Assembly (NCBI RefSeq): GCF_013122565.1
Contig: NZ_CP053258.1
DNA: 64,000 nucleotides
Reading direction: 5' to 3' (one strand)
DNA from: Escherichia coli
GTDB taxonomy: Bacteria > Pseudomonadota > Gammaproteobacteria > Enterobacterales > Enterobacteriaceae
Part shown: one piece after another, positions 46,805 to 47,649 of the stretch
Numbering within the stretch: position 1 is the first letter of the stretch
Layout of the letters: each line of letters begins with the position of its first letter
Made by a program: the position numbers and the translations under genes
Notes under the pieces: generated by a model
Told to the model about the DNA's origin: nothing
Database searches by the model: none
What the model saw: only the letters and a program-made list of their open reading frames with translations

Positions 46805-46806
46805 TC

Positions 46807-46839
46807 TATATCGCCTCGTTCAGAGGCGATATTTTTTTA
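46807..46839 (+). terminator. Rho-independent terminator of the hemCDXY operon
   Basis: Hairpin tatatcgcctc-gttca-gaggcgatat followed by ttttttt. Confidence 0.75.
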
Positions 46840-46844
46840 CAAGG

Positions 46845-47444
46845 ATGTCAAAATTGCGCACGCCGTCCCGCTATCTTTTCCGCTTGTCATCGCATGAAAT
46901 TACTCCTTTTCGGGCAACGCTCTTTTTAATCTTGTTGATATGTGCCGCTCTGGCTGGCGTAAGTTGGCTGATTATTTCCTTTATGCGTACGGGCAATACT
47001 TTCATCTTCTGGTTAACACTTTTTATTGGGTATCTGATAGCTGCGGCGAAGCAGGAAAAAATCAAGCTCCTCAAGAAGCACCGAATCATGGCAGATAAAC
47101 GTCAGGGACGCTCCATTTGCCAGTTTGCTCGCGAATTTAACACCCACTCCGTAGATACATGGGTGATTCGGGCGGTGTGGGATACCTTGCAAGGAAACGG
47201 CTATATCGATTACCCACTGCCACTTAAAGCCGATGATAAACTGGACGATGATCTGGATTTGGTGAGCGACGCAGTCGAGTTAGAAGAGCTGGTTGAAGAT
47301 ACCGCCGCTCGTTGCGGGCGCGATCTATGCGGAATAGAAGAGAATCCGTTTCTTCCCATCGTCACGGTAGGCTCTCTTGTAAGAGTGTTAAACGCGCAAC
47401 CGATGACTCAGGAGCGACGTAACCAGTTGTTTATTCCGTCATAA
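46845..47444 (+). CDS. Hypothetical 199-aa protein with two predicted N-terminal TM helices and an acidic C-terminal region
   Basis: 600-nt ORF convergent with glmZ, stop abutting the glmZ terminator; the ATG sits only ~5 nt after the hemY terminator T-run with no properly spaced SD, so the true start (or expression) is uncertain. Confidence 0.35.
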   Translation: MSKLRTPSRYLFRLSSHEITPFRATLFLILLICAALAGVSWLIISFMRTGNTFIFWLTLFIGYLIAAAKQEKIKLLKKHRIMADKRQGRSICQFAREFNTHSVDTWVIRAVWDTLQGNGYIDYPLPLKADDKLDDDLDLVSDAVELEELVEDTAARCGRDLCGIEENPFLPIVTVGSLVRVLNAQPMTQERRNQLFIPS

Positions 47445-47649
47445 AAAAACGCCTGCTCTTATTACGGAGCAGGCGTTAAAACAGGTCTGTATGACAACAA
47501 GTGGGTGCTTCACTCAACGTTGTGTCCATGGTGTCTGATGAGGCATAAGCGACATCTGTCAGTGGACGATAAGCACCGTAAACGGCTCTGCGTCATTCCG
47601 GGGTTTATGAGGCACTAAGGCGAACATAAGAGATGGAATGAGCATCTAC
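47443..47649 (-). ncRNA. glmZ: GlmZ small regulatory RNA (activates glmS translation)
   Basis: The 207-nt minus-strand read GTAGATGCTCATTCCATCTCTTATGTTCGCC...AGAGCAGGCGTTTTTTT matches GlmZ as I remember it, with an intrinsic terminator and a CATAAT -10 about 7 nt upstream; lies between hemY and aslA as expected. Confidence 0.88.

What the first reader, a model, noticed from the sequence alone, without database searches (positions are those of the whole stretch)
46805..47445. 199-aa membrane-protein ORF convergent with the glmZ sRNA, sharing its terminator region
Between the hemY terminator and the 3' end of glmZ there is a 600-nt open frame encoding two predicted N-terminal TM helices and an acidic C-terminal stretch (DDKLDDDLDLVSDAVELEELVED). 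Its stop lies right at the A/T run of the glmZ terminator, so any transcription of this ORF would run antisense into glmZ and vice versa. The annotated ATG sits about 5 nt after the hemY terminator T-run with the AAGG directly abutting it, so either the start is an internal Met or expression depends on terminator read-through. I do not recall an annotated protein gene at this position in K-12, although the hemY-aslA spacer is long there too. It could be a missed small membrane protein, or a non-coding region that happens to be open.
Basis: partly seen in the sequence, partly recalled or inferred. Interest (0 to 1): 0.45.

Follow-up and report, generated by a model that had tools for sequence, protein, structure and literature searches.

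The report
Strain-variable membrane pseudo-ACP gene beside glmZ
The open frame between hemY and glmZ is a real but dispensable E. coli gene, present in about one genome in eight, that encodes a small inner-membrane protein whose cytoplasmic domain has the acyl-carrier-protein fold but lacks the cofactor-carrying serine; RefSeq already annotates it as "hypothetical protein" and its function is unknown.

Summary
There is a 199-codon ORF at 46845-47444 (+), and its stop codon overlaps the 3' end of glmZ (Rfam, 218 bits).

- **Real gene:** It has homologues in 651 clusters at 50% identity. dN/dS within Escherichia is 0.27-0.30. The AlphaFold model has mean pLDDT 92.7.
- **Start codon:** AAGGA lies 8 nt upstream, which gives a 196-aa protein.
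- **Databases:** No Pfam, NCBIfam, PHROGs or PADLOC family matches. RefSeq already lists this exact protein as hypothetical (WP_171460076.1).
- **Distribution in E. coli:** 689 of 5426 complete genomes carry it. K-12-type genomes have 47 nt in place of about 638 nt. In E. albertii it is frameshifted.
- **Elsewhere:** Relatives at about 40% identity sit at the same hemY-glmZ site in a contig whose protein resembles that of Klebsiella aerogenes. Other enterobacteria carry it between rlmC and artJ. Distant members are attC-flanked cassettes.
- **Expression and function:** Expression probably depends on transcription from hemCDXY. Function is unknown; I favour a membrane-tethered ACP mimic or adaptor, at low confidence.

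The parts
45608..46804 (+). hemY, the last gene of hemCDXY and the upstream co-directional neighbour
   Evidence: ORF list; annotated as hemY in homologous E. coli loci
A homologous hairpin without a T-run is present in L004.
46841..46845 (+). Shine-Dalgarno-like AAGGA, 8 nt upstream of the conserved TTG start
   Evidence: CAGGAG at the equivalent place in L004 and L006
46845..47444 (+).
   Evidence: a 199-aa version also exists in NCBI (WP_250880410.1)
46854..47444 (+). Most likely coding sequence: 196 aa from TTG. This is the start PGAP uses, and it matches the N-terminus MRTPSRY shared by all homologues.
46905..47051 (+). Transmembrane hairpin (about residues 18-66). Flanking charge is N-terminus +3 and post-TM2 linker +6, so both ends are predicted to be cytoplasmic.
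47056..47061 (+). A6 homopolymer inside the ORF. E. albertii is frameshifted here (A5), which splits the gene into 80-aa and 118-aa pieces.
   Evidence: variant P0026 goes out of frame at the same place
47109..47429 (+). Cytoplasmic ACP-fold domain (residues 86-192), net charge -10. The acidic helix (140-154) corresponds to ACP helix II. The position equivalent to the ACP serine is Ala here.
47442..47444 (+). TAA stop codon, the first bases of the A-run that templates the GlmZ U-tail
47443..47649 (-). glmZ sRNA gene, convergent with the ORF
   Evidence: Rfam RF00083, 218.2 bits, full length
47448..47477 (-). glmZ intrinsic terminator hairpin. It has a T-run only on the - strand.

Best explanation
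This is a genuine accessory protein-coding gene: 196 aa, from TTG 46854 to TAA 47444.

**Product.** The protein has a two-helix inner-membrane hairpin with both ends in the cytoplasm. It begins with a conserved N-terminal motif (MRxPSRxMP/LF). It ends in an acidic cytoplasmic domain with the four-helix acyl-carrier-protein fold. That domain lacks the serine that carries phosphopantetheine, so it cannot work as an acyl carrier. I call it a pseudo-ACP.

**Family.** It belongs to a widespread but patchily distributed family that is absent from Pfam, NCBIfam, PHROGs and PADLOC. In environmental proteobacteria, members are single-gene cassettes flanked by attC sites.

**History at this locus.** The gene sits in the convergent junction between hemCDXY and glmZ. 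It was probably there in the ancestor of Escherichia. It was deleted in the K-12-type majority of E. coli and frameshifted in E. albertii.

**Expression (inferred).** No promoter of its own was detected, so it is probably transcribed from hemCDXY by read-through of the hemY hairpin. The overlap of its stop codon with the glmZ terminator follows from where it was inserted and is not a regulatory device.

**Mechanism (inferred, low confidence).** The domain acts at the inner face of the membrane by protein-protein contact through its acidic helix II, which is the surface ACPs use to dock on partner enzymes. It would serve as a tethered ACP mimic, decoy or adaptor with a conditionally useful, probably protective, role.
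For: **Real coding gene.**
- 49 close and 651 distant cluster representatives, all about 170-200 aa; 513 profile hits.
- dN/dS 0.27-0.30 within Escherichia, with 38 of 72 differences at third codon positions.
- AlphaFold mean pLDDT 92.7, pTM 0.84.

**Start codon.** ATG, GTG or TTG at the same aligned codon in four lineages, each with a spaced Shine-Dalgarno sequence.

**ACP fold.**
- 7 of the 8 best PDB profile hits are ACPs aligned on helix II.
- Foldseek against PDB and viral structures finds only ACPs.
- Some members are auto-named 'acyl carrier protein' by their source.

**No cofactor serine.** The serine-equivalent column reads D19, P17, E12, A7, G6, S5 of 80 sequences.

**Topology.** Hydropathy and flanking charges.

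**Presence or absence.** 689 of 5426 E. coli genomes carry it, in two alleles at about 96% and 88% identity to the window. J53 (a K-12 derivative) and O157:H7 lack it.

**Ancestry.** The same hemY-ORF-glmZ order occurs in L004 (its protein resembles the K. aerogenes cluster; the source organism is unidentified) and L006, with a homologous hemY hairpin in L004.

**Cassette mobility.**
- attC-type repeat arrays: 8 copies in L076 and 3 in L068. The L068 member is bounded by two of them, with its stop codon inside the inverse core.
- Neighbouring genes are a mixture typical of cassette arrays.

**No own promoter.** The scan finds no + strand promoter in 46400-46850. Many family members follow a co-directional gene by 0-50 nt.
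Against: - No expression data were available. The hemY hairpin here carries a T7 run and should terminate most transcripts, so protein levels may be very low.
- dN/dS of 0.27-0.30 is much weaker constraint than on hemY (0.005) or aslA (0.02).
- The gene is lost in 87% of E. coli genomes and broken in E. albertii, so it is dispensable and may be decaying.
- The window copy has no attC remnants, so its route of arrival is unknown.
- The mechanism is not tested at all: no conserved partner gene was found in 80 loci, there is no domain fusion, and there are no PADLOC or PHROGs hits.
- The sequence-level ACP similarity is marginal (E 0.085-1). Foldseek E-values are above 0.1.
Confidence: 0.8

Rival explanations
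1. The frame is open by chance or is a decayed pseudogene. The interval is really a non-coding spacer carrying terminators.
For: - No hit in Pfam or NCBIfam.
- Absent from 87% of E. coli genomes.
- Frameshifted in E. albertii and truncated in some E. coli isolates.
- A terminator-like hairpin lies just upstream.
Against: - Full-length homologues occur across several phyla, with invariant residues.
- dN/dS is significantly below 1.
- The fold prediction is confident.
- Intact 196-aa forms dominate the database clusters, with more than 1000, 404 and 362 contigs.
Confidence: 0.04
2. It is an orphan immunity protein or a single-gene anti-phage or abortive-infection factor. It moves as a cassette, is kept in some lineages for protection, and uses its membrane hairpin and pseudo-ACP domain to sense or block an invader or toxin.
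For: - Distant members are cassettes in arrays that also hold Imm33-like, CPCC, YoeB and GNAT genes.
- Distribution is patchy and lineage-variable.
- A preprint reports that many chromosomal-integron cassettes of unknown function encode defence systems (10.1101/2024.07.02.601686, seen). This is a prior only, not evidence about this family.
Against: - No adjacent toxin or effector gene in any of 80 loci.
- No PADLOC or PHROGs match.
- Nothing in the sequence indicates an effector activity.
Confidence: 0.2
3. It is a functional partner of the heme pathway (HemX/HemY) or a regulator of GlmZ, which would explain its fixed position between them.
For: The hemY-ORF-glmZ order occurs in Escherichia, in L004 (a contig whose protein resembles the K. 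aerogenes cluster) and in a third lineage. The stop codon lies within 6 nt of the glmZ end in all three.
Against: - Other Enterobacteriaceae carry the gene between rlmC and artJ.
- Most members have unrelated neighbours or are cassettes.
- hemY and glmZ are convergent and functional in K-12-type genomes without it.
Confidence: 0.05
4. It is a small membrane toxin of the CptA/YgfX or holin type.
For: - Four of 80 family members gave weak Pfam Cpta_toxin hits (best E 2.7e-5).
- The N-terminal two-TM layout is like that of YgfX.
Against:
- The window protein itself has no such hit.
- The conserved part of the family is the soluble domain, not the hairpin.
- No antitoxin-like neighbour was found.
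Confidence: 0.04

Closest known systems
Acyl carrier proteins (AcpP, mitochondrial NDUFAB1/ACPM, PKS/NRPS carrier domains; Pfam PP-binding clan)
   Different: - The phosphopantetheine serine is absent (Ala here; Ser in 5 of 80 members).
- No PP-binding HMM match.
- The domain has about 20 extra N-terminal residues carrying a nearly invariant SIC-FAR motif.
- It is tethered to a membrane hairpin. ACPs are soluble or part of synthases.
Integron gene cassettes (attC-bounded single promoterless ORFs)
   Same: Distant family members (L068, L076, and probably L018, L080, L087) are single ORFs bounded by attC-type repeats within arrays. The gene is small, has no detectable promoter, and depends on upstream transcription.
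   Different: The window copy has no attC-like flanks and lies in a core-genome intergenic site. No integron integrase was shown next to the arrays examined.
DUF1493 (PF07377), an enterobacterial protein family of unknown function
   Same: Four of 80 family members give weak hits to it (E 0.061 or worse).
   Different: The hits are far below threshold and the window protein has none. To my recollection DUF1493 proteins are about 115 aa, soluble and placed in the ACP-like clan; I did not verify this here.
CptA/YgfX membrane toxin
   Same: An N-terminal two-TM hairpin followed by a cytoplasmic tail. Some members give weak Pfam hits.
   Different: No profile similarity, a different C-terminal domain, and no SdhE-like partner gene.

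Membership tests
Acyl carrier protein / PP-binding superfamily | Four-helix ACP fold | tested here: met
Acyl carrier protein / PP-binding superfamily | Conserved Ser of the (D)SL motif at the start of helix II, the 4'-phosphopantetheine attachment site | tested here: not met
   The column aligned to the ACP Ser (residue 140) reads D19, P17, E12, A7, G6, S5 of 80. The window protein has Ala.
Acyl carrier protein / PP-binding superfamily | Significant match to the family HMM (Pfam PP-binding) | tested here: not met
   No PP-binding hit for the window protein or among the 25 most frequently matched families of the 80 members. PDB profile hits to ACPs are only E 0.085-1.
Acyl carrier protein / PP-binding superfamily | Actual modification by AcpS or Sfp and acyl carriage | not testable with these tools
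   Needs mass spectrometry or a labelling assay.
Integron gene cassette | ORF bounded by attC recombination sites (inverse core ...AAC, core GTT..., imperfect palindrome) | tested here: not met
   For the window copy, my attC-like scan of 40000-52000 found nothing flanking the ORF. The feature is met for distant members: L068 4712-4810 and 5340-5438 bound the ORF at 4827-5357, and L076 has 8 repeat copies.
Integron gene cassette | Integron integrase (IntI) and attI next to the array | tested here: inconclusive
   Two Phage_integrase hits occur among the array neighbours, but the candidates I re-scanned were not IntI. The arrays may be clusters of attC sites without an integrase, or the integrase may lie outside the flanks fetched.
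GlmZ sRNA (RF00083), the convergent neighbour | Covariance-model score above the gathering threshold over the full length | tested here: met
   218.2 bits against a threshold of 60, model positions 1-214, window 47443-47649 on the - strand.
CptA/YgfX toxin (PF07254) | Profile similarity to YgfX | tested here: not met
   hhalign probability 0.6%.
Polymorphic-toxin immunity proteins | Gene immediately downstream of a toxin or effector gene in at least some loci | tested here: not met
   No recurrent neighbour in 80 loci. The upstream genes inspected are housekeeping genes or spurious ORFs.
Known anti-phage defence systems (PADLOC-DB) | HMM match to a catalogued defence protein | tested here: not met
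   0 families for the window protein and three relatives.

The most novel reading that the evidence does not exclude
The ORF represents an undescribed, cassette-borne protein family: a membrane-tethered pseudo-ACP that mimics the acidic docking helix of acyl carrier protein. At the inner membrane it would capture or block an ACP-binding partner. The partner could be a host lipid or envelope enzyme, or an incoming toxin or phage factor that exploits ACP. Carrier lineages such as ST131 would gain a conditional protective advantage.
Probability: 0.15. Interest if true: 0.6.

Novelty: new variant of a known kind. Interest (0 to 1): 0.33.

Why it matters
The gene is a presence/absence polymorphism in the E. 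coli core-genome backbone. It is present in ST131-type and some other lineages and absent from K-12, so work on laboratory strains has never seen it. It lies immediately against a well-studied sRNA gene.

The family is large (hundreds of 50%-identity clusters) and mobile as cassettes. It has no entry in Pfam, NCBIfam, PHROGs or PADLOC. It combines a known fold, ACP, with a membrane anchor while lacking the defining cofactor site.

If a function were found, it would annotate many hypothetical cassette genes and show a non-carrier use of the ACP fold. For glmZ biology the result is mostly negative. The convergent layout already exists without the ORF, so no special regulation needs to be invoked.

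Tried and rejected
- **Family databases:** Pfam, NCBIfam, PADLOC and PHROGs scans of the protein and relatives gave nothing meaningful.
- **CptA/YgfX:** this lead came from weak Pfam hits and was rejected by hhalign.
- **DUF1493:** only marginal hits, and the two papers that mention it say nothing about function.
- **Conserved partner gene:** an all-against-all BLAST of ORFs in 80 loci found none. The 8-locus cluster that appeared is the antisense ORF of the family gene itself in GC-rich genomes.
- **Upstream ORFs as toxins:** those checked turned out to be housekeeping genes or spurious antisense ORFs.
- **attC detection:** my first finder was too strict and the relaxed one still missed sites that the repeat families show, so I rely rather than on the counts.
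- **Integron integrase:** searched for in the arrays and not confirmed.
- **Structure libraries:** Foldseek against PDB and viral structures added only weak ACP hits.
- **Literature:** searches on the hemY-glmZ ORF and on the RefSeq accession found nothing. The GlmZ papers describe only the K-12 spacer.

Full report
**1. Observation.**

The window contains hemD, hemX and hemY (45608-46804), then the ORF at 46845-47444 (+, 199 aa from ATG). These are followed by glmZ on the opposite strand and by aslA and aslB.

Rfam places GlmZ (RF00083) at 47443-47649 (-), with 218 bits over the whole model. The ORF's TAA (47442-44) therefore overlaps the last bases of glmZ and opens the A-run that templates its U-tail.

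A hairpin at 46808-46832 followed by T7 lies just after the hemY stop, 6 nt before the ATG.

**2. It is a real gene.**

- A word-indexed search found 49 relatives, mostly 196-aa Escherichia proteins. It also found full-length proteins at 57%, 42% and 37-39% identity.
- An exhaustive HMMER search of 1.84 billion cluster representatives found 651 hits at E <= 1e-3 and 298 at E <= 1e-10, nearly all 170-200 aa.
- A profile search found 513 more at E <= 1e-5.
- Against two other E. coli alleles, dN/dS is 0.27-0.30. For the EC958 comparison, 38 of 72 differences fall at third codon positions and Fisher p = 1.7e-7.
- Constraint is weaker than on hemY (0.005) or aslA (0.02), but dS is comparable (0.31 against 0.17-0.30). 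That fits vertical descent with the flanking genes.
- AlphaFold2 on an 80-sequence alignment gives mean pLDDT 92.7 and pTM 0.84.

**3. Start codon.**

Every homologue begins MR(T/V/I)PSR. PGAP annotates 196 aa in GF60 and EC958, starting at the codon that is TTG 46854 in this window.

That codon is:
- ATG in EC958 and E. albertii;
- ATG in L004, with no upstream in-frame start;
- GTG in L006;
- ATG in Superficieibacter.

AAGGA (46841-45) lies 8 nt upstream of the TTG. CAGGAG or GGAG lies 6-7 nt upstream in the others.

**4. Architecture.**

The model has helices at 18-46 and 49-82 that form a hairpin. The hydrophobic cores are at 22-42 and 47-65. The N-terminus has net charge +3 and the segment after TM2 has +6, so both ends should be cytoplasmic.

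Residues 86-192 form a compact acidic domain with net charge -10.

- A profile of the family searched against PDB sequences has ACPs as 7 of its 8 best hits (E 0.085-1). All align on the helix II region, with the family's iDeeDL matching LDSLDV.
- Foldseek against PDB and BFVD adds only weak ACP hits.
- A few database members are auto-named 'acyl carrier protein' by JGI or UniRef.

The column that aligns with the phosphopantetheine serine reads D19, P17, E12, A7, G6, S5 of 80, and the window protein has Ala. The fold feature of the ACP family is met. The defining cofactor site and the family HMM are not. This is an ACP-fold domain that cannot be a carrier.

Invariant residues are R83, F91, D101, R106 and D128. 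Nearly invariant residues include C89, W103, R153, R156, N164 and P165.

No Pfam, NCBIfam, PADLOC or PHROGs family matches. A weak Cpta_toxin lead was rejected by hhalign at probability 0.6%.

**5. Distribution in Escherichia.**

- The segment is present in 689 of 5426 complete E. coli genomes, as two alleles. One is about 96% identical to the window (104 genomes). The other is about 88% identical (585 genomes, including ST131 strain EC958).
- It is annotated 'hypothetical protein' in every carrier listed.
- The exact window protein is already in NCBI as WP_171460076.1 (196 aa) and WP_250880410.1 (199 aa).
- Genomes without it include a J53 (K-12) derivative and O157:H7. They have 47 nt, with a different hairpin, between the hemY stop and the glmZ A-run, where this window has about 638 nt. 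The hemY-aslA distance differs by exactly 591 nt.
- In E. albertii the gene is at the same place but is frameshifted in the A-run that corresponds to window 47056-61, giving 80-aa and 118-aa pieces.
- Truncated variants occur in minority E. coli clusters. Intact forms dominate, with more than 1000, 404 and 362 contigs.

**6. Beyond Escherichia.**

A 190-aa protein (P0047, 37% identical to the window protein) lies in the order hemY-ORF-glmZ in L004. It resembles the cluster of P0044, whose members are named Klebsiella aerogenes, but the organism behind L004 is not identified. A 194-aa protein from an unidentified enterobacterium (57% identical) has the same arrangement in L006 and L008. In both, the stop codon lies 3-6 nt from the glmZ end.

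The hemY hairpin of L004 is recognisably homologous to the one here (ATCGCCTCGTT.AG.GGCGAT) but has no T-run. This argues that the gene is old at this site and is co-transcribed with hemY there.

In Superficieibacter, and by the same gene layout in Phytobacter/Kosakonia sp. S29, the homologue lies between rlmC and artJ. That is another convergent junction, about 30 nt behind rlmC.

A scan of one genome per species found 97 carriers in scattered lineages. These include Pseudomonas, Acidovorax, Methylococcaceae, Sulfurovum, Planctomycetota and Armatimonadota. No neighbour is shared across the family.

**7. Cassette nature of distant members.**

Many loci show the gene inside runs of small same-strand ORFs.
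- In L076, eight copies of a 93-nt repeat begin CTAAC and end GCGTTAG, with an internal palindrome. This is the inverse-core/core layout of attC.
- In L068, three such repeats occur. Two of them bound the family ORF (4827-5357), and its TAA lies inside the inverse core.
- A relaxed attC-like scan also finds flanking sites in L018, L080 and L087.
- The neighbouring ORFs are a cassette-like mixture: Imm33-like, CPCC, YoeB, GNAT, DinB, DUF families and two tyrosine recombinases.

I did not confirm an integron integrase, so 'attC-bounded cassette arrays' is the safe wording. The window copy has no attC-like flanks.

**8. How it most likely works.**

*Shown:* coding status, start codon, architecture, loss of the carrier serine, presence/absence polymorphism, conserved position at a convergent junction, and cassette mobility elsewhere.

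*Inferred:*
- Expression by transcription from hemCDXY. No + strand promoter was found in 46400-46850, and family members commonly sit 0-50 nt behind a co-directional gene. In this strain expression would be limited by the T7 terminator.
- The overlap with the glmZ terminator follows from the insertion site. hemY and glmZ are convergent and only 47 nt apart in genomes without the ORF. The hairpin is a canonical terminator only for glmZ.

*Mechanism, low confidence:* the acidic helix 140-154 corresponds to ACP recognition helix II. A tethered ACP mimic could therefore dock ACP-binding proteins at the membrane as a decoy or adaptor. The cassette lifestyle makes a conditional, protective role attractive. 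A preprint reports defence functions for many cassettes (10.1101/2024.07.02.601686), but nothing here tests that for this family.

**9. Novelty and score.**

The gene itself is already annotated as hypothetical, and its presence between hemY and glmZ in non-K-12 lineages is ordinary accessory-genome variation.

I could not find the following described anywhere: a membrane-anchored ACP-fold domain without the cofactor serine, in a large cassette-borne family with no entry in Pfam, NCBIfam, PHROGs or PADLOC. I rate it a new variant of a known kind, of modest interest (0.33). The glmZ-interference idea adds little.

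Noticed in passing
window 45480-45600 (3' end of hemX, 44388-45605): HemX ends in a Pro-Ala repeat ([17 protein letters not shown]). The hemX CDS length differs between strains: 405 aa here, against CDSs of 1200, 1194 and 1182 nt in GF60, EC958 and 4FA. This suggests repeat-length variation.
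   Followed up: no
window 47056-47061: An A6 homopolymer inside the ORF is the site of the E. albertii frameshift (A5 in L090). The E. coli variant P0026 also leaves the frame here. It is a likely slippage hot spot that inactivates the gene.
   Followed up: partly
L010-L013, about 3837-5606 (Kosakonia sp. S29 and Superficieibacter): In these Enterobacteriaceae the homologue is not next to hemY. It lies about 30 nt downstream of rlmC and is convergent with artJ. This is a second, independent insertion at a 3'-3' junction.
   Followed up: yes
L004 5971-6044; L008 1305-1378: In the non-Escherichia loci a tRNA gene lies beyond glmZ where E. coli has aslA.
   Followed up: no
window 45608-46804 and 48074-49729: Synonymous divergence from two other E. 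coli genomes is high for a within-species comparison: hemY dS 0.17-0.22 and aslA dS 0.30-0.32, with almost no amino-acid change. This could reflect a divergent lineage or recombination around this locus.
   Followed up: no
window 49756-49992: The translation of a + strand ORF between aslA and aslB (PDAMLTHLIQPT...GRIRRLRRIRQ) looks like translated REP/BIME repeat sequence.
   Followed up: no
E. coli collection: One of the 689 matches to the ORF segment lies on a record labelled plasmid. All others are chromosomal. This may be a mis-assigned replicon.
   Followed up: no
L076 4354-4653, 7301-7600 and 8917-9216: Besides the attC repeats, a 300-nt segment (89-91% identical) recurs three times in the Lysobacterales array. 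These look like duplicated cassettes.
   Followed up: no
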